From Flavobacteriaceae bacterium (lineage in GTDB: Bacteria; Bacteroidota; Bacteroidia; Flavobacteriales; Flavobacteriaceae): a stretch of DNA of 64,000 nucleotides. This document shows, in pieces, positions 3,186 through 35,824 of this stretch (positions are counted from its first letter, which is position 1; the number at the start of each line of letters is the position of its first letter). The notes under the pieces were generated by a model. It did no database searches. It was not told the origin of the DNA and saw nothing but the letters and a program-made list of their open reading frames with translations. The DNA lies in NCBI GenBank assembly GCA_049615925.1, contig JBMZGM010000005.1:5183-69182 (forward strand), given 5' to 3'. The position numbers and the translations under genes were made by a program.

Positions 3186-4046
3186 TTACTTTTTACCAGC
3201 CTTAAATAGAAATTCCTTTTCTGCTTTTGAGAGACTATCATAGCCCGAAGCACTTATTTTATCAAGGATACGGTCAATTTTTTCTTGATCAGAAGTAGTT
3301 GACGTTGAGGGTCGTTTTCGATAGGTTTTATGTACCGTTTTCATCTTTGGCGAAGTGTTCCCTAGGGATGAAAACCAATTCCAAAGACGCTCAAAACCAA
3401 CACCAATATCATTCCCCTTTTGCAATTGTTGCGCATAAAAATAACCCAAGGCCGCCCCTCCTATATGGGCGAGATGACCCCCTGCATTCCCCGTGGGAAT
3501 CTGTAGGACATCCATCACCACAAGCGCGATTCCGATATACATCAACTTTACATTAAAAAACAAAAGGCGAACCTCTTGATAAGGGGTATAGGTACAACTA
3601 AAAATCAACACTGCCATTACACCAGCAGAAGCACCAACCATCGAAGGATTTTGATCACTAAATACCGGAAAGACAGCATAACTCAACAAAAAGACAATTC
3701 CGCCAGTCAAGATTCCCATGAAATATACATTGATAAATCGCTGTGAAGAAAAGAGGTTTAAAAAAAACTGCGAAGCATAATACAACAATAACATGTTCCA
3801 AAAAATATGCCGCAAGCCATCGTGCAAAAACCCATAGGTCAATAATGTCCAGGGGCGATAAATAAACTCGCTAAAGGAAGAAGGTAACTCAAAGAAATCA
3901 AAAAAAGTTTGTTGGGGTAATTCCAACAAATAAAAGAGGGTGCGCAAGAAAAAAGGAACCACAAAGCAAACAACATTGATCAAAATCAATTTCTCTGCAA
4001 TGTTAAATTGACTAAAACGTTGACGGAAGCTTGTAAAACGACTCAT
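3186..4046 (-). CDS. rhomboid family intramembrane serine protease with C-terminal soluble tail
   Basis: Polytopic ORF with GASAGV (catalytic Ser) and HLAHIGGAALG (catalytic His) motifs. It has a C-terminal tail of about 60 aa (..IDRILDKISASGYDSLSKAEKEFL..). Confidence 0.85.
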   Translation of the reverse strand: MSRFTSFRQRFSQFNIAEKLILINVVCFVVPFFLRTLFYLLELPQQTFFDFFELPSSFSEFIYRPWTLLTYGFLHDGLRHIFWNMLLLYYASQFFLNLFSSQRFINVYFMGILTGGIVFLLSYAVFPVFSDQNPSMVGASAGVMAVLIFSCTYTPYQEVRLLFFNVKLMYIGIALVVMDVLQIPTGNAGGHLAHIGGAALGYFYAQQLQKGNDIGVGFERLWNWFSSLGNTSPKMKTVHKTYRKRPSTSTTSDQEKIDRILDKISASGYDSLSKAEKEFLFKAGKK

Positions 4047-4785: not shown

Positions 4786-6581
4786 TAGCTAAATTTTTTT
4801 TCTAATTCTTCTTTCGTCAAAGAAACAAAAATCTGTCGATTAAATGGCGAGAGCTGGGGCTCTTTACAAGCAAATAAATCATTGACTAATTGTTGTTGCT
4901 CTTCAATCTTCAAAACCGTTCCTCGCTTGGTAGAGAGTGTCTTTGCCATGGATTTTGCCAGGGCATCGGTTTGTGTAAAAGTATCTTGTGGAGCATCATT
5001 TTCAAGGGCTAAAAATAAGTCCTCAAAAACCTTAACTGCTCTATTCTCGCTGCACACACTGGGAATGCCAAGAATTTCTAGGGCATTGTCTTGCAACTTC
5101 CCCAAATGAAAGCCCACTGCTTCGAGCAAGCTTTTGTAAGCATCAAATAGACCAATTTGAAGAGCAGATAAAGAAATTTCTAATGGAAAAAGTAATTGCT
5201 GGCTTCCAGCATTCGCATGGGTTACATTGGCTAAAAAAAGCTCGTATAAAATCCGCTCGTGTGCTCGTTGTTGATCGATTAATAGCAAGGCCGCTCCAGT
5301 AGAACTCACGACATAGCGATTCATTAATTGAAAAATCTTCTGTTCCCCTAGCGGTTGTTTGGTTTCCTCGGTTGAGAGTAAACTCAGCGCTGTGCTCTCT
5401 GTACTCCCAATTTCCTGATAGAGGGATTCCCATTGTGGGCTTGCTTTTGATGTAAAAGATTGTGCCCCTTGATCTTTAAATGGATTAAAGCTGCGATCTA
5501 CTTCAATCTTAGGGGCAACCGCAGACTTTTCTACCTGTTGATAAGGAACGTCTAAATTTGGGTCGCGATCAAAATCTAGCGTAGGGGTCACTTGAAACAT
5601 CCCCAAACTGTGTTTCACCGCCGAACGAAGTATGGCAAATAAACTTTGTTCATTTTCAAATTTTACTTCTGTTTTTGTGGGGTGAATATTAATATCAATA
5701 GACGCGGGATCTAAATCAAAAAAAAGGAAGTAGCCAGGATAAGACCCTTCACTTAATAAACCCTCATAGGCGGTATTAATGGCATGGTGTAAAAAACTAC
5801 TTTTGACAAACCTCCTGTTTACAAAAAAGAACTGCATCCCTCTACTGCGTTTTGCCGCCTCGGGTTTTAAGATAAATCCATTGATTTTTGCAACAGAGGT
5901 ATCTTCATTAACTGGGACCAATTTATCATCTAATTTCCCGCCAAAAACATGGACTAATCGTTGTTTTAAATTCCCTGCAGGAAGATCAAAAAGCTCAGAA
6001 CCACCATGAACCATAGAAAAGCTTAAATCAGGGTGGGCAATGGCGACTCGATGGAATTCGTCAATGATGTGTCGTAGTTCAACAGTAGTAGATTTTAAGA
6101 AATTTCGTCGAGCAGGAACATTAAAGAATAAGTTACTCACCGTCATTGAAGTTCCCACGGGTGCAACTAAGAGTTCTTGTTCTTTGAACTCCCCTCCCGC
6201 TATTCTTAATTTAATACCCAGTTCATCAACTTCCCGCTTTGTGTGCATTTCAACCTGTGCTACTGCTGCAATAGAGGCGAGGGCTTCACCTCGAAAACCC
6301 TTTGTGTGCAAGGCAAAAAGGTCATTGGATTGCTTAATCTTAGAGGTGGCATGGCGCTCATACGCCAAACGAGCATCGGTCGCACTCATTCCAATACCAT
6401 TATCCACTACCTGTATCAATTGTTTACCTGCCTCTTTTACAATTAACTGAATGCGATCGGCTTTTGCATCAATTGCGTTTTCGAGTAATTCTTTCACCAC
6501 CGACGCCGGGCGTTGAACTACTTCACCAGCCGCAATTTGATTTGCGACATGATCGGGGAGTAAGGCAATAATGTCTTCCAT
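4785..6581 (-). CDS. mutL: DNA mismatch repair endonuclease MutL
   Basis: 598-aa ORF. The N-terminus LPDHVANQIAAGEVVQRPASVVKELLENAIDA is the GHKL ATPase signature of MutL. Confidence 0.95.
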   Translation of the reverse strand: MEDIIALLPDHVANQIAAGEVVQRPASVVKELLENAIDAKADRIQLIVKEAGKQLIQVVDNGIGMSATDARLAYERHATSKIKQSNDLFALHTKGFRGEALASIAAVAQVEMHTKREVDELGIKLRIAGGEFKEQELLVAPVGTSMTVSNLFFNVPARRNFLKSTTVELRHIIDEFHRVAIAHPDLSFSMVHGGSELFDLPAGNLKQRLVHVFGGKLDDKLVPVNEDTSVAKINGFILKPEAAKRSRGMQFFFVNRRFVKSSFLHHAINTAYEGLLSEGSYPGYFLFFDLDPASIDINIHPTKTEVKFENEQSLFAILRSAVKHSLGMFQVTPTLDFDRDPNLDVPYQQVEKSAVAPKIEVDRSFNPFKDQGAQSFTSKASPQWESLYQEIGSTESTALSLLSTEETKQPLGEQKIFQLMNRYVVSSTGAALLLIDQQRAHERILYELFLANVTHANAGSQQLLFPLEISLSALQIGLFDAYKSLLEAVGFHLGKLQDNALEILGIPSVCSENRAVKVFEDLFLALENDAPQDTFTQTDALAKSMAKTLSTKRGTVLKIEEQQQLVNDLFACKEPQLSPFNRQIFVSLTKEELEKKFS

Positions 6582-7426: not shown

Positions 7427-8188
7427 TTATTGGTTTTCTAAACGCCCAATCTGTATTTCGATTTGAGCAGCCTCTGGAGCAGTAGAAAAGTCGTTTTGAA
7501 TGCGCTTAAAAAAGTTAAGTGCCTCACTATTTTTACCTAAACTCGCGCCTACTAATCCTGCTTTGAAAAGATATTTTGGCGTAGTAAAATCATTTTCGCT
7601 AGCATTTGCAGCTGCTTTGTAGTACTGAAGCGCCTTCTCGCTATTTCCTAGTTGAGCGTGAGCATCGCCTAGGGCACCTTTTGCCAAAGCAGAAAGCAAA
7701 ACATCATCTGAACTAAAATCTTCAAGATAGCTAATCGCTTTCTCATAATCTTTTGTGTTCAAATAAGCCATTCCTATACTGTACTGTGCTAGTCCAGCTG
7801 CAGGGGTTCCACTGTAATTTTCTATGATATCTAAAAAACCATATTTCCCATCACCACCATTAATGGCTCTTTGATAAAGCGCATCACTCTCTTCACCATT
7901 AACGGCAAGATTAAAGTAATACTGTGCTTGGTTCAATTCTGATACTGCATCGGCTTTCTTTGGCGTAAGCACATAAGCATCATAGGCTAGATAGCCCAAT
8001 ACAACAACTGTAATCGCTCCAATAAGAGAAAGGATAATGTTTTGATTATTGGCAACAAATTCTTCTGTTTTAGAAGCACTAGAATCTAGCGACTCAAAAA
8101 CCTCTGCTGTTGTGCTTTCTACTACTTGTTCTTCGACTTGTGGCTTTGCAATTGATTTTTTTGCGCCGCGTTTTTTATATGTTGCCAT
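7427..8188 (-). CDS. tetratricopeptide repeat protein (YfgM-like, N-terminal membrane anchor)
   Basis: 253-aa ORF with one TM segment (IILSLIGAITVVVLGYLAY) followed by TPR-like helical repeats. Confidence 0.7.
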   Translation of the reverse strand: MATYKKRGAKKSIAKPQVEEQVVESTTAEVFESLDSSASKTEEFVANNQNIILSLIGAITVVVLGYLAYDAYVLTPKKADAVSELNQAQYYFNLAVNGEESDALYQRAINGGDGKYGFLDIIENYSGTPAAGLAQYSIGMAYLNTKDYEKAISYLEDFSSDDVLLSALAKGALGDAHAQLGNSEKALQYYKAAANASENDFTTPKYLFKAGLVGASLGKNSEALNFFKRIQNDFSTAPEAAQIEIQIGRLENQ

Positions 8189-30486: not shown

Positions 30487-32418
30487 ATGCAAATGGAACC
30501 TACATTGTCACCTGAAGAAAATCAAGACAAACTTGAGCCAACAGGGGAAGATCAAATCACCACCAATGCCCAAGAAAAGGGGGATGAAGATCTTTCTAAA
30601 GAAGAGAACACCCCAGTATCAACAGAAACTTCTCCCACTAAAAATCTTGACATTGCAGTCGATCAACTCGCCCTAGAAGAGTTTCCTGCGGCGCTAGAAA
30701 AAGTGCTGAAAAATGATCAATGGATGCGTTTAGGCAATATAGTCCGTGATCTTCAGCAAAGTTTTGACTCCCAGTTTTTAGTCATTTTACAAGAAAAGAA
30801 AGCCGAATTCATTGCCGAAGGCGGAAATGAAATTGACTTTTATTTTGCCCCAGACTATAAAAAGCACTTTAGTGGTTTATTAAAAGAATACAAGCAAAAA
30901 AAGGCGAAGTACTTTAAAGAAATAGAAACGACGCAAAAAGCCAACCTCAACAGAAAGCGAGAAATCATTGAAGAGATTAAGCTTTTAGTCGATCAAAGCG
31001 ATCACAACAATGGCACCTATCGCCAGTTTAAAAACCTGCAGGAAGCCTTCCACAATACAGGTTTAGTTCCAAGGAATGAAGTCAATAATATTTGGCAAAC
31101 CTATAAATTTCATGTTGAACGCTTTTATGACTTTTTACACCTCAACCGCGATTTACGCGAAGCCGACTTCAAACACAATTATGAAGAAAAGTTGAAAATC
31201 ATTGAGCGTGCAGAAGCGCTTGCTCAAAATGCAGATGTCATCGCTTCTATACGTGAGCTCAATACCCTACATCGTTTATGGAAAAATGATCTAGGACCCG
31301 TAGCACGAGAACACCGCGAGGAATTGTGGAGTCGATTTCAAGCGGCCACTAAGGCAATTCACCAACTAAAGAATGAATACAATAAAAATATTGACAGTAT
31401 TCAAAGTGAAAATCTTGCCAAAAAAGATGGTATTCTTAAACAAATAGCAGAGTTAATCGCAACCGCTCCCTCCAATCACAATGCATGGCAAAACGCCATC
31501 AAAAAGGTCAACACCCTAAAAGAGGAGTTTCATGCGATTGGACGCGTACCCAAAGCCGAAAACAAGCGTTTATGGAACAGCTTCAGGGAATTGAGTCGGG
31601 AATTTAATCAAGCGAAGAACCTCTTTTACAAAGAACAAAAAAGTCAAGAAAAACAATACATTGAGGCCAAAAAAGCCTTAATCGAGGAAGTAGCCACAAT
31701 TTTAGATGATCCCAATTGGCGCGATCATGTTAGCCGAATGAAATCGGTTCAAACCGATTGGAAAAAAACAGGCCGCATCTCCAGAAGACTTTCGAATAAA
31801 TTATGGGAAGAGTTTAAAGCCTTGACCAATCTTTATTTTGATCGCCTCAAAAATAAAACTGAAGCCCTGAGTGCGGCAGATCAAGCAGCGCTTGCAGCCC
31901 AAAATAATTTTGTGGAAAGCCTGCTCAAAACCGAAGCACCTACTACCCCAAAAAAACTAGAACGCTTTATCGACGAACAAGTTGAACAGTGGCTCAACCT
32001 AAACCCCGCCCCCAATGCGCCTGCACAAAAGAAATTACTACACCACCTGGTCAACCTTTGGGAGGCGACTTCCCTCTCGCAAAAAGAGAAGGCAAGCCAA
32101 AAGTTTACGACCCAATTAGCACTCATAAAACAGGACATCGATGCCCTTAACAGGGAACACGCCCTTCAAAAGAAAAAAATCGATGAAATCAATAACGAAT
32201 TGATCCAATTAGAGAACAACCTTCAGTTTTTTAGCAGTAGTAGTGAAGAAAATCCCGTTGTGATTGAAGTAAATGCTAAAATCAAAAAACTCTCCCAACA
32301 AAAAGAAGCATTGGAAGAAAAAAGCAATGCCATTAAATCCTTAAAACGAGCCCTTAAAAAACAAGAAGAAGCCGGTGCAGCTGAAAACGCTGAAGGTGAA
32401 GAAGTACTGGAAGATTAA
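30487..32418 (+). CDS. DUF349 domain repeat protein
   Basis: 643-aa highly charged helical ORF. It has at least 4 recurring W..F/Y-type units (NNIWQTYKFHVERF, EELWSRFQAATKA, KRLWNSFRELSREF, NKLWEEFKALTNLY) typical of DUF349 repeats. Confidence 0.8.
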   Translation: MQMEPTLSPEENQDKLEPTGEDQITTNAQEKGDEDLSKEENTPVSTETSPTKNLDIAVDQLALEEFPAALEKVLKNDQWMRLGNIVRDLQQSFDSQFLVILQEKKAEFIAEGGNEIDFYFAPDYKKHFSGLLKEYKQKKAKYFKEIETTQKANLNRKREIIEEIKLLVDQSDHNNGTYRQFKNLQEAFHNTGLVPRNEVNNIWQTYKFHVERFYDFLHLNRDLREADFKHNYEEKLKIIERAEALAQNADVIASIRELNTLHRLWKNDLGPVAREHREELWSRFQAATKAIHQLKNEYNKNIDSIQSENLAKKDGILKQIAELIATAPSNHNAWQNAIKKVNTLKEEFHAIGRVPKAENKRLWNSFRELSREFNQAKNLFYKEQKSQEKQYIEAKKALIEEVATILDDPNWRDHVSRMKSVQTDWKKTGRISRRLSNKLWEEFKALTNLYFDRLKNKTEALSAADQAALAAQNNFVESLLKTEAPTTPKKLERFIDEQVEQWLNLNPAPNAPAQKKLLHHLVNLWEATSLSQKEKASQKFTTQLALIKQDIDALNREHALQKKKIDEINNELIQLENNLQFFSSSSEENPVVIEVNAKIKKLSQQKEALEEKSNAIKSLKRALKKQEEAGAAENAEGEEVLED

Positions 32419-32680
32419 TTATTGCAGCTTTGTCTTTAAATACCCAAAGCGGAAGAATCGATACTTTTTTATTACGTGGAACAAAATCCTCCTAGGTTAA
32501 AACTCAACATGAGAAACGGCAAGTAAGGATATTTGACTTAAATGCTCCATTTACTCTTTTACCCCTTTGGCATTAAAACCTAATTTCTCTGCGTCTTCAA
32601 CCAATTCCAATTGGTTTGTGCATGAAAAGGAAATTTTGGAGTTTAAAGTAGTTCCAAAAAAACCCAAAATGGAATAATCT

Positions 32681-33301
32681 TTAAGCGATAAATTTAACTA
32701 GTAACAAAAAACTAGTTGGAATAAGATTAACGAAAAAATGGAACCATAGAGAATAGTTAAATCCACATTTCAATCTTAAAACTGATGAAACTAGGGCAAT
32801 TGAAATTTGAGGTGAAATCAGAACTGGAAAAAATAAATATTGTTTAGTATCCTCAAATTGAATATTTGATAAATGAACTAATCCAAAAATGAGTACAGAA
32901 CCATATACCATAATTAAAAGGTTATTCTGTATCAGATTTTTTAATTTTTTTTCAAAATTGTTTTTTGATAAAAATTGATAAACAGCAATAATTACCATTG
33001 ATACAATAATCAGTTTGTAAATTAAAAAGATTGAAATTTTATAAAAACCAGAATTGGATGCAATAGAAATAATGTAATAGCATATACCTCCCAGAGATAT
33101 AGAAATATTTAATCTCGAATACCTTAAAAATAGTCGAAAACTTATTTCTTCCAATAAAGGGCCAGCAAATAGGACGGTAATTAATATATAATATCAACTA
33201 TTTTTTAAAATAAACGCAAACACTTTATGTGGTGGCAATCCATAATTTGACCTTATATAACTAATTATAAACCATGTGATTATCATCATCAAACAATACA
33301 T
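32681..33301 (-). pseudogene. CPBP (CAAX protease/bacteriocin-processing, Abi) family intramembrane glutamic protease, interrupted by an in-frame TGA
   Basis: The track ORF 32681..33154 starts (TTG) exactly at CPBP motif 1 (EEISFR). Motif 2 (FGLVH) and motif 3 (HFFVN) are also present. The same frame continues upstream (YYILITVLFAGPL), crosses a single TGA at 33194-33196, and reaches ATG 33301 (MYCLMMIITWFIISYIRSNYGLPPHKVFAFILKNS), which supplies the missing N-terminal TM helices. Confidence 0.6.
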
Positions 33302-33408
33302 GAGAAATGAAACATAAAAAAAATTTCTTTTCTCAACATTAGATGATAGTATGGATCCATCTTCCTTCCCTAAAAAAAATCAAAAAATAAGACTACATGT
33401 TTTTTCAT

Positions 33409-33437
33409 AAAAAAAGTCCAGTCTTTTAATACTGGAC
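33409..33437 (-). terminator. rho-independent terminator (minus strand)
   Basis: On the minus strand: GTCCAGT-attaaaag-ACTGGAC followed by T7. It lies 72 nt downstream of the 41-aa ORF and immediately upstream of the CPBP region. Confidence 0.65.
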
Positions 33438-33508
33438 ATTTACCTTAAGTTTTCTGTATCAACTATTGTAGTTTTCATTTCTAATCATTTTTTATTGCGC
33501 TTCGAAAA

Positions 33509-33634
33509 TCAACTAAATCCAGTCAAAAGACCTACTTTGAAATGATCCCAATCACTTACTATCGCTCTTGTGATTAAAAAGGCAATTAATAAAAATATTA
33601 ACGTGCTTGTTTTTATAGATTTATTTCGTTCCAT
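33509..33634 (-). CDS. hypothetical 41-aa single-pass membrane peptide
   Basis: Hand-translated, below the track cutoff: MERNKSIKTSTLIFLLIAFLITRAIVSDWDHFKVGLLTGFS. Its ATG shares 1 nt with the TAA of the upstream peptide gene (TAATG), suggesting translational coupling. Confidence 0.4.
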   Translation of the reverse strand: MERNKSIKTSTLIFLLIAFLITRAIVSDWDHFKVGLLTGFS

Positions 33635-33810
33635 TAATGATTTGTTTCATGAATACTATAATTAGCAATAGCGTCGATTACACCTTTAAAACTTGTATTC
33701 TTTCCAGATAAACTTGAACCAATAAGCCATCCAACATCAAAAGCAAAACAGCCGCTAGAAACACTCATTAATTCGTTTTTAGATAATTCTTTGAAATTTT
33801 TATTCTCAAT
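33634..33810 (-). CDS. candidate double-glycine-type leader peptide (class II bacteriocin-like precursor)
   Basis: Hand-translated: (I)ENKNFKELSKNELMSVSSG|CFAFDVGWLIGSSLSGKNTSFKGVIDAIANYSIHETNH. The leader fits F-x-x-L-S-x-x-E-L-x-x-V-x-(S)G, and the core has GxxxG-like motifs. The only ATG (33768) lies inside the leader. The codon where Met would be expected is ATT (33810). The frame is open from 33834. Confidence 0.4.
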   Translation of the reverse strand: MENKNFKELSKNELMSVSSGCFAFDVGWLIGSSLSGKNTSFKGVIDAIANYSIHETNH

Positions 33811-33815
33811 AGTTA

Positions 33816-33986
33816 CTAATTGACCCTTCTTAAACTACGAATCATTAATGCTATTCCAATTAATATCAATAATAGATTCATGCCATTTTCATCAAGACTA
33901 AGAGGGGCATTAAAATTTAAATTCAAAAAACTTAATACCAGTATCAATAATGAAAGAATAAATAATAAATTTTTTGACTTTAACAT
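33816..33986 (-). CDS. hypothetical 56-aa membrane peptide with two hydrophobic segments
   Basis: Hand-translated, below the track cutoff: MLKSKNLLFILSLLILVLSFLNLNFNAPLSLDENGMNLLLILIGIALMIRSLRRVN. Its stop lies 5 nt before the ATT codon of the leader peptide ORF. Confidence 0.4.
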   Translation of the reverse strand: MLKSKNLLFILSLLILVLSFLNLNFNAPLSLDENGMNLLLILIGIALMIRSLRRVN

Positions 33987-34032
33987 TTATACAATTAATT
34001 AGATTAAGGCGACTATATCCTGTTGTTTAAAG

Positions 34033-34359
34033 CTAAAGTAAACGCCTATCCTGCAATTCCCTTGCCGTTTGCACTTTTTTTAGTTGCCCGCCAATAATCC
34101 TAGTCATTTCATCGTCCATTAAAACCCGTACCTCAAGATGGACACTCAATTCAAAGGGATCACAATAGCGGTAGGTTTTTCGTTTACGGTCATAGCATAG
34201 TTCTGCTCCCCAATCTTTTAATATCCCAAGGTCATAGCGTAGGGTGCGCTGGCTAATCCCTAATAGCTGTGCGATCTCGGTAGCCGTACCCGTTTGCTCA
34301 GCTTTAAGGCAAAGATGTAAACGCTCAAGGCGTTGAAAATGTTTAAGGGAATAGGTCAT
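34033..34359 (-). CDS. small HTH (HTH_11/YafY-N-terminal-like) transcriptional regulator
   Basis: From ATG 34359: MTYSLKHFQRLERLHLCLKAEQTGTATEIAQLLGISQRTLRYDLGILKDWGAELCYDRKRKTYRY.. This is a winged-HTH pattern followed by the YDR.rk.Y.Y element seen after HTH_11 domains. Confidence 0.65.
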   Translation of the reverse strand: MTYSLKHFQRLERLHLCLKAEQTGTATEIAQLLGISQRTLRYDLGILKDWGAELCYDRKRKTYRYCDPFELSVHLEVRVLMDDEMTRIIGGQLKKVQTARELQDRRLL

Positions 34360-34582
34360 TTTGAATAGAATTGGATTGATTTGGGTTAATCCAGTCAATA
34401 ACATCATCATACAGTAGTTGAAAGAGACTGCGATGGGCTTGATAAAACAAGGCCGTTAAAGTCAAGCCTTTTGTAAGACTTCCTTTTATCCCGCTGAGTA
34501 AATTTGAATGAGGTTGTAAACGAAAATGATGCAGCTCCACCGTCTGGTCAAGGAACTCCTTAGGAAAGAGTTGATTTTTCAT
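34343..34582 (-). CDS. hypothetical protein (79 aa)
   Basis: Track ORF overlapping the HTH gene start by 17 nt. I recognise no family. It is preceded by a perfect inverted repeat. Confidence 0.4.
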   Translation of the reverse strand: MKNQLFPKEFLDQTVELHHFRLQPHSNLLSGIKGSLTKGLTLTALFYQAHRSLFQLLYDDVIDWINPNQSNSIQNDLFP

Positions 34583-34602
34583 GTTAAGATTTTGGTCTTA
34601 AC
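34583..34602. promoter_or_regulatory. perfect 7-bp inverted repeat (GTTAAGA-N6-TCTTAAC) abutting the start codon of the 79-aa ORF
   Basis: Read directly from the sequence at 34583-34589 and 34596-34602. It sits 18 nt downstream of the mazG stop and directly 5' of ATG 34582 on the minus strand. It could be an operator or an mRNA hairpin. No T-run follows it. Confidence 0.3.
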
Positions 34603-34620
34603 AAGATATAAAAAATAAAA

Positions 34621-35400
34621 TTATTGCTGCTTTGCCTCTTCCCAGTAAACGTTCATTTCATCTAGGGTCATCTCATGCAAGGACTTGCCGAGGGCTTTGG
34701 CCTTTGCCTCTAAATACCCAAAGCGTTGAGTAAATTTCTGGTTGGTACGCTCTAGGGCAGTATCGGGGTTGATCTTTAAAAAACGGGCATAATTGATCAT
34801 GGAAAAAAGCACATCGCCAAACTCGGCTTCAATGGCTTCTTTGTTTCCACTTTTGATTTCCTCGTTCAGTTCACTGAGTTCCTCTTGTACCTTTTCCCAT
34901 ACCTGTTCGGGTTGTTCCCAGTCAAAGCCCACACCAGCAACCTTATCTTGAATGCGCTGTGCTTTTACAAGCGCGGGTAAGCCCTTTGGGACACCTTCTA
35001 GAACAGTTTTCTTTCCTTTGCCTTCTTTTAACTTTAAAGCCTCCCAGTTTTGTTTGACCTCTTCTTCGCTCTCCACCTTTACATCCCCATAAATGTGCGG
35101 GTGGCGATAGATTAGTTTTTCAGAAATTCCATGGGCAATATCGGCCATATCAAAGGCCTTTTCTTCGCTCCCCAGGCGAGCATAAAAGGCGATGTGTAAA
35201 AGTAAATCCCCTAGCTCATTTTTAATTTCATCGAGATTGCGCGCTAGAATAGCATCCCCCAGTTCATAGGTCTCTTCAATGGTGAGATGTCGCAGGGACT
35301 CAAAGGTTTGCTTTTTATCCCATGGGCATTGCTCGCGCAACTCATCCATAATGGTGAGCAGGCGATCAAGGGCAGCTAATTGATCCTTTCGGCTATTCAT
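34621..35400 (-). CDS. mazG: nucleoside triphosphate pyrophosphohydrolase MazG
   Basis: From ATG 35400 (MNSRKDQLAALDRLLTIMDELREQCPWDKKQT..). It has tandem MazG EExGE-type motifs (EETYELGDA, ELGDLLL, EFGDVLF). The track's longer 331-aa form overlaps the upstream gene. Confidence 0.9.
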   Translation of the reverse strand: MNSRKDQLAALDRLLTIMDELREQCPWDKKQTFESLRHLTIEETYELGDAILARNLDEIKNELGDLLLHIAFYARLGSEEKAFDMADIAHGISEKLIYRHPHIYGDVKVESEEEVKQNWEALKLKEGKGKKTVLEGVPKGLPALVKAQRIQDKVAGVGFDWEQPEQVWEKVQEELSELNEEIKSGNKEAIEAEFGDVLFSMINYARFLKINPDTALERTNQKFTQRFGYLEAKAKALGKSLHEMTLDEMNVYWEEAKQQ

Positions 35401-35824
35401 CCTCTTGAGTGACTTCTTCTTCTGCTGGACTTTCTTGTGTAAATATCTCGGGAGCTTTCTCGACGAGGATATTGTACCACTGAATGATTTTTTTGATGTC
35501 TGAGGGATAGACTCTTTCTTCGTCATAATCTTGAAAGACGTCAAAGAAAAAGGCTTCAAGCTCTTCGGCAGGGGCTTTCGCTTTAACCGAGCAGCTTTTC
35601 CCATCTTCTTTGGCATAGATCATTTTAAAAACCTCTAATAATGGGACTTCCTTTTCTAAGCCATAGATGTTTATTTCAGATAAAAGACTTACTTGATTTC
35701 GCACCGATGCATTGATGCGCTTGCCATCAACAAGGGAGGTTGCAACCACCCCTGTTCTGGTTTGAATGGCGACTTCATATAGTCCTGGTCTTCCTCCGAT
35801 GGAAATAATTTTATCGAGTTGCAT
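35393..35824 (-). CDS. DUF5606 domain protein
   Basis: 143-aa ORF (MQLDKIISIGGRPGLYEV..SLLSEINIY..IKKIIQWYNIL) matching my recollection of the DUF5606 family that commonly neighbours def in Flavobacteriia. Confidence 0.75.
   Translation of the reverse strand: MQLDKIISIGGRPGLYEVAIQTRTGVVATSLVDGKRINASVRNQVSLLSEINIYGLEKEVPLLEVFKMIYAKEDGKSCSVKAKAPAEELEAFFFDVFQDYDEERVYPSDIKKIIQWYNILVEKAPEIFTQESPAEEEVTQEDE

What the first reader, a model, noticed from the sequence alone, without database searches (positions are those of the whole stretch)
33634..33810. Unlisted small ORF with a bacteriocin-type double-glycine-like leader but no ATG in front of the leader
The minus-strand translation reads FKKGQLVT-I-ENKNFKELSKNELMSVSSG-CFAFDVGWLIGSSLSGKNTSFKGVIDAIANYSIHETNH*. 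The stretch NFKELSKNELMSVSSG fits the F-x-x-L-S-x-x-E-L-x-x-(I/V)-x-G-G leader used by peptidase-C39 ABC exporters. Ser-Gly replaces Gly-Gly (AGC versus GGC, one nucleotide). The 38-aa core is amphipathic with GxxxG-type spacing (GWLIG, GSSLSG), as in class II bacteriocins. The codon where the initiator Met is expected is ATT (33808-33810). There is no ATG, GTG or TTG between the upstream in-frame TAG (33835-33837) and the internal ATG at 33768, which lies within the leader. Three readings are possible: (a) rare AUU initiation, (b) a leaderless 44-aa product from ATG 33768, or (c) a recently inactivated precursor gene. The ORF is below the 60-aa cutoff, so automated annotation would miss it.
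Basis: partly seen in the sequence, partly recalled or inferred. Interest (0 to 1): 0.65.

Follow-up and report, generated by a model that had tools for sequence, protein, structure and literature searches.

The report
Dead bacteriocin-type peptide gene in decayed locus
The small reading frame is a real member of an uncharacterised family of secreted double-glycine-leader peptides of Bacteroidota, but here it has lost its start codon and part of its cleavage site, and it sits in a locus whose export machinery has been deleted, so it is most likely a recently dead gene.

Summary
The minus-strand frame 33634-33810 reads IENKNFKELSKNELMSVSSG|CFAFDVGW...HETNH. ATT sits where a Met is expected, and no ATG/GTG/TTG occurs before the internal ATG at 33768. 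It is not a chance ORF: it belongs to a family of more than 30 peptides of 52-66 aa (best E 4e-9 in 1.84 billion proteins). All relatives start with Met, and 30 of 32 aligned sequences carry Gly-Gly at the leader end. In relatives the gene ("beta") lies in a conserved cassette: HlyD/AprE adaptor, peptidase-C39 ABC exporter, HTH regulator, a partner "alpha" GG-leader peptide, beta, a small leaderless membrane protein, and often a CPBP protease. The window locus is syntenic with an intact relative (L001) but decayed. HlyD is cut from 391 to 79 aa. Only about 50 codons of the C39-ABC gene remain, with stops. The CPBP gene has a frameshift and a TGG->TGA nonsense codon. Alpha is reduced to a probable relic. 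Beta has ATG->ATT and GG->SG. A second assembly (SRR27204717) shows the same lesions. The kind is known (class II, two-peptide-type bacteriocin locus), but the peptide family has no curated model. Interest is low to moderate.

The parts
33634..33810 (-). Beta-type double-glycine-leader peptide gene, judged a pseudogene. It has 58 codons plus TAA. The leader is 33751-33810 (IENKNFKELSKNELMSVSSG) and the 38-aa core is 33637-33750. ATT at 33808-33810 stands in place of the initiator. AGC at 33754-33756 gives Ser where the family has Gly at -2.
   Evidence: Searches give the sequence. Searches give the family: all relatives start with M, 30 of 32 aligned sequences have GG, and the core invariants D25, G27, W28 and Y51 are kept. 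predicts a leader helix plus a two-helix core.
33766..33768 (-). Internal ATG (Met at leader position -6). It is the only canonical start in frame, and a gene caller used it to give a 44-aa product.
   Evidence: P0001. None of the 31 relatives starts at this column.
33509..33634 (-). Intact 41-aa leaderless single-pass membrane protein (MERNKSIKTSTLIFLLIAFLITRAIVSDWDHFKVGLLTGFS). It is the conserved third gene of the cassette, is immunity-like, and its start overlaps the beta stop (TAATG).
   Evidence: an HMM of the relatives' third genes hits it at i-E 2.7e-6, and the alpha-tail motif at 3.9e-6; tblastn with the L004 48-aa protein gives E 7e-7. Searches show the same gene after beta in seven of the relatives' loci (L004, L010-L013, L017, L019) and a matching stretch, read from the frame translation, after beta in L016.
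33823..33849 (-). Probable relic of the C-terminal motif of the partner alpha peptide. It reads INDS*FKKG against I(I/V)NDW(D/E)xFK(K/D)G in relatives, lies in the frame of beta, and includes the TAG at 33835-33837.
   Evidence: a regex for the motif finds 13 of 13 true alpha tails and no false hit in 348,000 residues of the loci; in the window it finds one random hit plus this one, directly upstream of beta; the HMM on a frame-composite gives E 0.003 (weak). The distance from FKxG to the beta start is 12 nt here and 26-48 nt in nine relatives.
33816..33986 (-). 56-aa ORF with two hydrophobic segments, in the slot where relatives have the alpha peptide. Its status is uncertain. It has no GG leader and no detectable homologue, and its 3' end overlaps the alpha relic in another frame, so it may be a chimeric leftover.
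   Evidence: Searches find no family. Searches find no match to the relatives' small proteins. bear on the overlap.
33416..33437 (-). Intrinsic-terminator-like hairpin (GTCCAGT...ACTGGAC followed by T7) after the peptide genes. It is conserved in L001.
   Evidence: One search shows DNA similarity to L001 starting at window 33441.
32681..33408 (-). CPBP (Abi/Rce1-like) intramembrane protease gene, disrupted. There is a -1 frameshift in the T run at 33372-33379 and TGA at 33194-33196 where relatives have Trp. The motifs EExxxR, FxxxH and HxxxN are still present.
   Evidence: P0003 (72% identical, intact, 242 aa) and P0004 have W at that position; tblastn shows the match split over two frames. 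TGA is a normal stop here.
32458..32619 (-). Relic of the peptidase-C39 ABC exporter gene. Only residues about 46-97 of about 720 remain, with in-frame stops. The catalytic Cys region and the whole transporter are missing.
   Evidence: TNQLELVEDAEKLGFNAKGVKE*MEHLSQISLLAVSHVEF* against the L001 C39 domain. (tblastn, E 2e-8 to 2e-5).
34036..34359 (-). Intact HTH_11 regulator (108 aa) of the locus. Its C-terminal part carries a conserved leader-like ...DDEMTRIIGG motif.
   Evidence: PF08279, E 3e-7. (52% identity to the L001 HTH). (alignment A3)..
34343..34582 (-). Remnant of the HlyD/AprE-type membrane-fusion adaptor. The 79-aa ORF joins about 27 N-terminal residues to about 50 C-terminal residues of a 385-391-aa protein, so about 310 codons are deleted.
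   Evidence: L001 HlyD, 391 aa. (residues 1-44 and 336-382 match). (L001 nt 220-1203 have no counterpart in the window).

Best explanation
The ORF is the 'beta' precursor gene of a two-peptide, double-glycine-leader bacteriocin-type cassette found in Bacteroidota. In this genome it is a recently inactivated pseudogene inside a locus that has lost its ability to make and export the peptides.

How intact relatives most likely work (inferred from gene content and established knowledge of C39 exporters):
- The precursor of about 55-60 aa has a helical leader with L-12, E-8, L-7, a hydrophobic residue at -4, and Gly-Gly.
- The peptidase-C39 domain of a dedicated ABC transporter recognises the leader, cuts after Gly-Gly, and exports the peptide with a HlyD/AprE-type adaptor.
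- The mature beta peptide of about 38 aa is predicted to be a two-helix hairpin with a conserved FxxDxGWxxG GxxxG motif.
- It is made together with an alpha peptide (GG leader, one hydrophobic helix, DW(D/E)xFKxG tail).
- A small leaderless membrane protein that copies the alpha tail, and often a CPBP protease, presumably protect the producer.

What the window shows directly:
- The exporter is reduced to about 50 codons.
- The adaptor is reduced to a 79-aa stump.
- The CPBP gene carries a frameshift and a nonsense codon.
- Alpha is gone except for a relic.
- At least 14 nt are missing at the alpha/beta junction.
- Beta has ATT for ATG and Ser for Gly at -2.
- The HTH regulator and the 41-aa immunity-like gene are still intact.
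For: Family membership:
- phmmer against 1.84 billion representatives finds 10 peptides of 54-66 aa (E 4e-9 to 5e-4).
- The profile search finds 32 clusters.
- Alignment A2: all relatives begin with Met, the window's Ile aligns with the Met of five of them, Gly at -2 is present in 30 of 32 sequences, and Gly at -1 and the core residues D25, G27, W28 and Y51 are invariant and kept in the window.

Context in relatives:
- HlyD/AprE, a C39-ABC exporter, an HTH, alpha, beta, the small membrane protein, and sometimes CPBP.

Decay in the window:
- L001 is syntenic (MazG, HlyD, HTH, peptides, CPBP, C39-ABC) and intact.
- tblastn and blastn show the HlyD internal deletion, the C39 relic, and the CPBP match split over two frames.
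- The TGA sits at a conserved Trp.
- There is no C39-ABC among the ten large ORFs of the window that were scanned against Pfam.
- The alpha relic is supported.

The lesions are not sequencing errors. An independent assembly (L003, SRR27204717) differs from the window at three bases in MazG only and carries every lesion.

Cost of the two changes in beta:
- AUU initiates at about 1-2% of AUG in E. coli (bioRxiv 10.1101/063800).
- Accepted cleavage motifs are GG, GA and GS, so variation is tolerated at -1, not -2 (PMC6363468).
Against: - The beta frame is still open over 58 codons in 26%-GC DNA and keeps every invariant core residue and all leader recognition residues (L9, E13, L14, V17). Inactivation must therefore be recent, or the frame is still under some selection.
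- The 41-aa downstream gene is intact and overlaps the beta stop (TAATG), an arrangement that suggests translational coupling.
- AUU can initiate at a low level.
- One relative (P0006) has Ala-Gly at the leader end, so Gly at -2 may not be absolute in this family. That locus also has a split HlyD and a truncated HTH.
- Only 64 kb of the genome is visible, and another C39 exporter could lie elsewhere.
- No close orthologue with ATG and GG was found, so the direction and age of the changes are inferred from distant relatives (at most 47% identity), and no dN/dS test was possible.
Confidence: 0.8

Rival explanations
1. Functional gene with a rare AUU start. The 58-aa precursor is made at a low level from ATT 33808-33810, perhaps by re-initiation after the upstream 56-aa ORF, which stops 5 nt before it. 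A C39 exporter encoded elsewhere in the genome would then process it.
For: The frame is open from the ATT, and all core invariants and the leader recognition residues are kept. ATT is a near-cognate start with about 1-2% of AUG activity. The stop of the 56-aa ORF lies at 33816-33818, just upstream. The downstream immunity-like gene is intact.
Against: None of the 31 relatives lacks a Met start. In all nine loci whose DNA was examined, beta begins with ATG. Gly at -2 is also lost. The cognate exporter, adaptor, CPBP and alpha partner in cis are destroyed. The normal 14-30 nt spacer in front of beta is missing.
Confidence: 0.08
2. A leaderless 44-aa peptide (MSVSSGCFAF...) is translated from ATG 33768 and acts inside the cell or is released without processing.
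For: It is the only canonical start in frame. A gene caller predicted exactly this product (P0001). Leaderless bacteriocins exist in Firmicutes (general knowledge).
Against: The Met is leader residue -6. No relative starts there, and in the family this column is variable and not Met-enriched. The product would keep six leader residues, would have no export signal, and no exporter is at hand.
Confidence: 0.07
3. The ATT, the AGC and the other lesions are assembly or sequencing errors, and the real gene is intact.
For: The CPBP frameshift lies in a homopolymer run (T8), a typical error site.
Against: A separate assembly from SRR27204717 has the identical island, including ATT, AGC, TGA and the T run, while differing at three bases elsewhere. 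The large deletions in HlyD and C39-ABC cannot be base-calling errors.
Confidence: 0.03
4. It is a chance ORF in AT-rich intergenic DNA with a fortuitous leader-like string.
For: Curated models score below threshold: TIGR01847 gives 14.0 bits against a 15.7 cutoff, and PF10439 gives 12.9 against 27.1.
Against: There is significant full-length homology to more than 30 peptides in conserved exporter-linked cassettes.
Confidence: 0.01

Closest known systems
Class IIb (two-peptide) bacteriocins of Firmicutes, e.g. lactococcin G and plantaricin E/F and J/K (general knowledge; weak HMM echoes NF038035, TIGR03949 and PF10439)
   Same: In the relatives, two adjacent small genes each have a double-glycine leader. 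They are followed by a small membrane immunity-type gene and served by a C39-ABC exporter plus an accessory protein. Beta has a GxxxG motif and predicted helical peptides.
   Different: The organisms are Bacteroidota (Gram-negative). There is no significant sequence similarity of the cores, and all curated models score below cutoff. An HlyD/AprE adaptor, an HTH_11 regulator and often a CPBP protease belong to the locus. In the window itself the system is non-functional.
Bacteroidetocins (Coyne et al. 2019, PMC6671954)
   Same: [quoted passage not shown]
   Different: Bacteroidetocins are single 42-aa peptides with four Cys (two disulfides). Their four-gene locus has a thiol oxidoreductase and a 5-TM protein and no immunity gene. 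The present family has 0-1 Cys (two in P0039 only), a partner peptide, an immunity-like gene, HlyD, an HTH and CPBP.
Abi/CPBP (PF02517) proteins linked to bacteriocin self-immunity (general knowledge; NCBIfam NF052640 weak hit)
   Same: A CPBP intramembrane protease gene with EExxxR, FxxxH and HxxxN motifs directly follows the peptide genes in the window, L001, L002, L006 and L012.
   Different: The window copy is broken by a frameshift and a nonsense codon. Its score is far below the NF052640 cutoff (33.9 against 220 bits).
Degenerate 'cheater' bacteriocin loci, e.g. blp loci of Streptococcus pneumoniae with a disrupted BlpA exporter (general knowledge, not checked here)
   Same: Export and production genes are lost, while the regulator and an immunity-type gene stay intact.
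   Different: The phylum and peptide family differ. Whether the retained 41-aa gene confers immunity is untested.

Membership tests
Double-glycine-leader precursors exported by peptidase-C39 ABC transporters (TIGR01847 / PF10439 type) | Initiator Met followed by a 15-30-aa leader | tested here: not met
   ATT stands at the Met column, and no ATG/GTG/TTG occurs before leader residue -6.
Double-glycine-leader precursors exported by peptidase-C39 ABC transporters (TIGR01847 / PF10439 type) | Leader recognition residues Leu-12, Glu-8, Leu-7 and a hydrophobic residue at -4 (PMC6363468) | tested here: met
   L9, E13, L14 and V17 of the 20-residue leader. A helix is predicted at residues 11-16.
Double-glycine-leader precursors exported by peptidase-C39 ABC transporters (TIGR01847 / PF10439 type) | Gly at -2 and Gly/Ala/Ser at -1 | tested here: not met
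   The window has Ser-Gly (AGC GGC). Of the 32 aligned sequences, 30 have Gly at -2.
Double-glycine-leader precursors exported by peptidase-C39 ABC transporters (TIGR01847 / PF10439 type) | Score above the curated HMM cutoffs | tested here: not met
   TIGR01847 gives 14.0 bits (cutoff 15.7), TIGR03949 gives 13.7 (21.5), and PF10439 gives 12.9 (27.1).
Double-glycine-leader precursors exported by peptidase-C39 ABC transporters (TIGR01847 / PF10439 type) | Linked C39-ABC exporter and accessory/adaptor gene | tested here: not met
   The window holds only a relic of about 50 codons of C39 and a 79-aa HlyD stump. There is no exporter among the ten large window ORFs scanned against Pfam. The feature is met in relatives.
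Beta-peptide family defined here (alignment A2) | Core (C/S/T)F(A/G)xDxGW(F/L)(I/L)G ... (D)YxxHY with significant full-length similarity | tested here: met
   E 4e-9 to P0006. The invariants D25, G27, W28 and Y51 are kept.
Beta-peptide family defined here (alignment A2) | Lies between an alpha GG-leader peptide gene and a small leaderless membrane-protein gene | tested here: inconclusive
   The downstream gene is present and intact. Alpha is absent apart from a probable relic.
Class IIb two-peptide bacteriocins | Two adjacent GG-leader structural genes plus an immunity gene in one operon | tested here: not met
   Met in relatives. In the window only beta (defective) and the immunity-like gene remain.
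Class IIb two-peptide bacteriocins | Antibacterial activity that needs both peptides | not testable with these tools
   No member of this family has been assayed, as far as the searches show.
Bacteroidetocins | Mature peptide of about 42 aa with four Cys, and a locus with a thiol oxidoreductase and a 5-TM protein | tested here: not met
   The core has one Cys, and no such neighbours are present.

The most novel reading that the evidence does not exclude
The locus may be a 'production-off, protection-on' remnant of a previously undescribed Bacteroidota two-peptide system with two unusual features.

1. The small leaderless membrane protein protects by mimicking the tail of the secreted alpha peptide. 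It copies that tail almost residue for residue within a locus.
2. The HTH regulator is itself a substrate or docking partner of the C39 exporter, through a conserved leader-like ...ExxxI(I/Y)GG site followed by a variable tail.

Under this reading the window keeps the regulator and the 41-aa protein under selection as orphan immunity, while toxin and exporter genes decay.
Probability: 0.2. Interest if true: 0.6.

Novelty: new member of a known kind. Interest (0 to 1): 0.3.

Why it matters
For this genome it matters little. The gene should be annotated as a pseudogene within a degenerate bacteriocin-type locus, not as a new active peptide or as an example of AUU initiation.

The wider value is the family it led to. 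It is a conserved alpha/beta/immunity-like cassette with its own exporter, adaptor, HTH regulator and CPBP protease. It is seen only in uncultured Bacteroidota (Flavobacteriaceae, Prolixibacteraceae, Bacteroidia MAGs) and has no curated model. Two-peptide bacteriocins are well studied in Firmicutes but hardly at all in Bacteroidota. Intact relatives (L006, L008, L010, L017) are ready candidates for synthesis and testing. The decayed window locus is an example of how such loci erode while a regulator and a putative immunity gene persist.

Tried and rejected
- The word-index protein search with the single peptide found only the window's own 44-aa product. Exact look-up of that product found nothing.
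- Scans of genome contigs and metagenome contigs with the single peptide found no close relative. No allele with ATG/GG was obtained, and no dN/dS test was possible.
- phmmer hits to giant repetitive proteins (P0005, P0008, P0010, P0016) are repeat or low-complexity artefacts. The Anaerolineae locus L015 is a false hit.
- No solved structure is related. There is no Rfam family in 32300-34700, and the CRISPR-DR30 hit at E 0.68 is noise.
- I considered reading the TGA in the CPBP gene as Trp (genetic code 4). This is rejected because TGA ends 4 of 41 long housekeeping ORFs.
- I considered the low-GC stretch (32500-34030) as a recent horizontal insertion. This is rejected as an explanation specific to this genome, because the syntenic relative L001 shows the same GC dip over its peptide and CPBP genes.
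- I tried to recognise the 56-aa ORF as an alpha peptide or as a 2-TM immunity protein like those of L004 and L008. No significant match was found.

Full report
**1. Observation**

The minus strand of 33634-33840 translates as S*FKKGQLVTIENKNFKELSKNELMSVSSGCFAFDVGWLIGSSLSGKNTSFKGVIDAIANYSIHETNH*.
- TAG at 33835-33837
- ATT at 33808-33810
- the only canonical in-frame start, ATG, at 33766-33768
- AGC GGC (Ser-Gly) at 33751-33756
- TAA at 33634-33636

Between the TAG and the ATG there is no ATG, GTG or TTG. At the local 26% GC, an open frame of this length has a chance probability of about 0.003. Two small corrections apply. GSSLSG is not a GxxxG motif, whereas GWLIG is. Also, a gene caller has already deposited the 44-aa version from ATG 33768 (P0001).

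**2. The ORF belongs to a real peptide family**

The curated models give only sub-threshold leader hits: TIGR01847 scores 14.0 bits against a 15.7 cutoff, and PF10439 scores 12.9 against 27.1. An exhaustive phmmer search of 1.84 billion representatives found ten peptides of 54-66 aa at E 4e-9 to 5e-4. The other four hits were giant repetitive proteins and are spurious. A profile search found 32 clusters. One of them NCBI names 'bacteriocin [Flavobacteriaceae bacterium]'.

In the 32-sequence alignment A2:
- Every relative begins with Met, and the window's Ile aligns with the Met of five of them (P0012, P0017, P0019, P0023, P0040).
- The closest full-length relative, P0023, has a leader of exactly the same length: MEKLNIQELTKNEIITLNGG against IENKNFKELSKNELMSVSSG.
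- Gly at -1 is invariant.
- Gly at -2 is present in 30 of 32 sequences. The exceptions are the window (Ser) and P0006 (Ala).
- The core motif is (C/S/T)F(A/G)xDxGW(F/L)(I/L)G ... DYxxHY. The window keeps all invariant core residues (D25, G27, W28, Y51).
- The window also keeps the leader residues that C39 peptidases are known to read: L-12, E-8, L-7 and V-4 (PMC6363468).

AlphaFold with this alignment predicts a short leader helix and a two-helix core, with mean pLDDT 75. No Pfam or NCBIfam model covers the core. No solved structure is related. A pattern scan of 185,579 species genomes found five true loci. All are MAGs of Bacteroidia, Prolixibacteraceae, Tangfeifania and Flavobacteriaceae.

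**3. The family's normal context**

Loci L004-L009, L010-L014 and L016-L020 were examined. They show a recurrent cassette:
- an HlyD/AprE-type adaptor
- a 720-aa peptidase-C39 ABC exporter
- an HTH regulator of about 110 aa
- an 'alpha' peptide: GG leader, one hydrophobic helix, and the tail I(I/V)xDW(D/E)xFK(D/K)GF..AF
- the 'beta' peptide, which is this family, 14-30 nt further on
- a leaderless membrane protein of 38-58 aa with a basic N-terminus and an (N/D)W(D/E)x(F/L/I)K tail
- often a CPBP (Rce1/Abi-like) protease

This is the gene grammar of a two-peptide (class IIb-like) bacteriocin locus with dedicated export and self-protection. That function is inferred, because no member has been assayed.

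**4. The window locus is a decayed copy**

The region 32500-34030 is low in GC, about 25% against 42% in the flanks. On the minus strand the gene order is MazG, a 79-aa ORF, an HTH_11 protein, a 56-aa ORF, beta, a 41-aa ORF, a terminator hairpin, a CPBP-like ORF, and then the convergent DUF349 gene.

The metagenomic contig L001 has a CPBP protein 72% identical to the window's. It is syntenic: MazG, HlyD (391 aa), HTH, two GG-leader peptides of other families, CPBP (242 aa), and a C39-ABC exporter. Comparison by tblastn and blastn shows the following:
- The 79-aa ORF is the HlyD gene with codons about 28-335 deleted.
- Downstream of CPBP only residues about 46-97 of the C39 domain survive (32458-32619). 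They contain in-frame stops and lack the catalytic Cys region and the transporter.
- The CPBP gene starts at ATG 33406-33408. It shifts frame in the T run at 33372-33379 and has TGA at 33194-33196 where P0003 and P0004 have Trp.
- TGA is a normal stop in this genome, ending 4 of 41 long ORFs.
- The peptide segment between the HTH and the terminator has no DNA similarity to L001. It is therefore a variable cassette between conserved flanks. L001 shows the same GC dip there.
- None of the ten large window ORFs scanned against Pfam is a C39-ABC exporter.

**5. The neighbours of beta**

The 41-aa ORF (33509-33634) is intact, and its ATG overlaps the beta stop (TAATG). It is the cassette's third gene. 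The HMM of that family hits it at i-E 2.7e-6, and it ends in IVSDWDHFKVGLLTGFS.

The alpha slot holds a 56-aa hydrophobic ORF with no GG leader and no detectable relatives. In the frame of beta, however, the sequence directly upstream reads INDS*FKKG (33823-33849). This matches the alpha tail INDW(E/D)xFKKG of L010 and L012. A regex for this tail finds all 13 true alpha tails and nothing else in 348,000 residues of six-frame translation of the loci. In the window it finds one unrelated hit and this one. An HMM on a frame-composite gives only E 0.003. I therefore call this a probable relic.

From the Gly of FKxG to the start of beta there are 26-48 nt in nine relatives but 12 nt in the window. 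The alpha stop codon and the spacer in front of beta are thus missing. The start region of beta has been damaged by more than one base change.

**6. The lesions are real**

L003 is an assembly of a different run (SRR27204717). It differs from the window at three positions in MazG and is identical across the island. It carries the ATT, the AGC, the TGA, the T run and both deletions.

**7. Interpretation**

Beta is a recently inactivated precursor gene in a locus that has lost exporter, adaptor, partner peptide and CPBP protease.
- AUU supports only about 1-2% of AUG initiation in E. coli (bioRxiv 10.1101/063800).
- Accepted C39 cleavage motifs vary at -1 (GG, GA, GS), not at -2 (PMC6363468).

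The points against this reading are these:
- The frame is still open, and its invariant residues are intact.
- It may be translationally coupled to the intact 41-aa gene.
- One relative has Ala-Gly at the leader end (P0006), although in a locus whose HlyD is split and whose HTH is truncated.
- The rest of the genome cannot be inspected.

I put the pseudogene reading at about 0.8, low-level AUU initiation at 0.08, a 44-aa leaderless product at 0.07, and sequencing error or a chance ORF at 0.04 together. The regulator and the immunity-like gene survive while the toxin and export genes decay. This resembles the 'cheater' configuration known from other bacteriocin loci (general knowledge). It is an inference, not shown here.

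**8. Comparison and novelty**

The system works like a class IIb two-peptide bacteriocin locus, but its cores share no significant similarity with any curated family.

It differs from the bacteroidetocins. Those are single 42-aa peptides with four Cys, and their locus has a thiol oxidoreductase and a 5-TM gene (PMC6671954).

The window's gene fails three defining features of a functional GG-leader precursor: a start codon, Gly at -2, and a linked exporter. It meets the leader-helix and core-family criteria.

I rate it a new (and defective) member of a known kind. The source is probably a Flavobacteriaceae MAG. It is an NCBI contig of 93,631 bp, and the 90% cluster of its UvrB includes a 'Flavobacteriaceae bacterium' protein.

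Noticed in passing
window 34036-34359 (-); L001 1323-1604; L004 7454-7774; L006 7382-7729; L008 7281-7616; L011 7432-7746; L017 895-1221: The HTH_11 regulators of these loci all carry, about 90 residues in, a leader-like motif ...(E)xxxI(I/Y/F)(G/A)G, with I88 and G91 invariant in the six aligned sequences. After it the sequences diverge completely in length (3-26 aa). It looks like a double-glycine cleavage site with the HTH domain in the 'leader' position, reminiscent of NHLP/Nif11 long leaders. The regulator may be docked or cut by the C39 exporter.
   Followed up: partly
window 33509-33634 (-); L004 8190-8336 vs 7819-7983; L019 4193-4369 vs 3850-4026: The leaderless small membrane protein downstream of beta copies the C-terminal tail of the secreted alpha peptide of the same locus. 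In L019 the tails are DDWDHFKSGLYAGF and DDWDHFKAGLYAGF; in L004 they are SDWEHFKAG and SDWEHFKDG. This suggests an origin by duplication of alpha and possibly immunity by mimicry.
   Followed up: partly
window 33194-33196 (-) and protein P0002 / L003 2377-2997: The protein collection holds a 206-aa CPBP product (P0002) with Trp at the TGA codon, although the L003 DNA has TGA there. The likely cause is a gene caller that used an alternative genetic code, which hid the nonsense mutation.
   Followed up: partly
window 33441-34078 versus L001 1607-2052: Between the conserved HTH and CPBP genes, the peptide genes of the window and of the syntenic L001 are unrelated. L001 has a 53-aa and a 43-aa GG-leader peptide of other families. 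Both segments are very AT-rich (21-28% GC). This is a swappable peptide cassette, like the variable regions of other bacteriocin loci.
   Followed up: partly
L002 3965-8330: A metagenomic contig carries at least six different GG-leader peptide genes, a DUF3267 membrane protein, a 42-aa fragment of a C39 peptidase N-terminus (5377-5505) and a CPBP gene. It is another multi-peptide locus with a truncated exporter.
   Followed up: no
L019 192-3469: The locus of the closest beta relative (P0006, leader ending Ala-Gly) also shows decay. Its HlyD is split into pieces of 93 and 262 aa, and it has two N-terminally truncated HTH copies. An intact C39-ABC lies about 2.3 kb downstream in the overlapping contig L020.
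   Followed up: partly
window 34621-35616 (-): The MazG ORF as listed (331 aa) has a Lys/Ser-rich N-terminal extension of about 70 aa. The gene caller for L003 omits it (259 aa), so the true start is probably internal.
   Followed up: no
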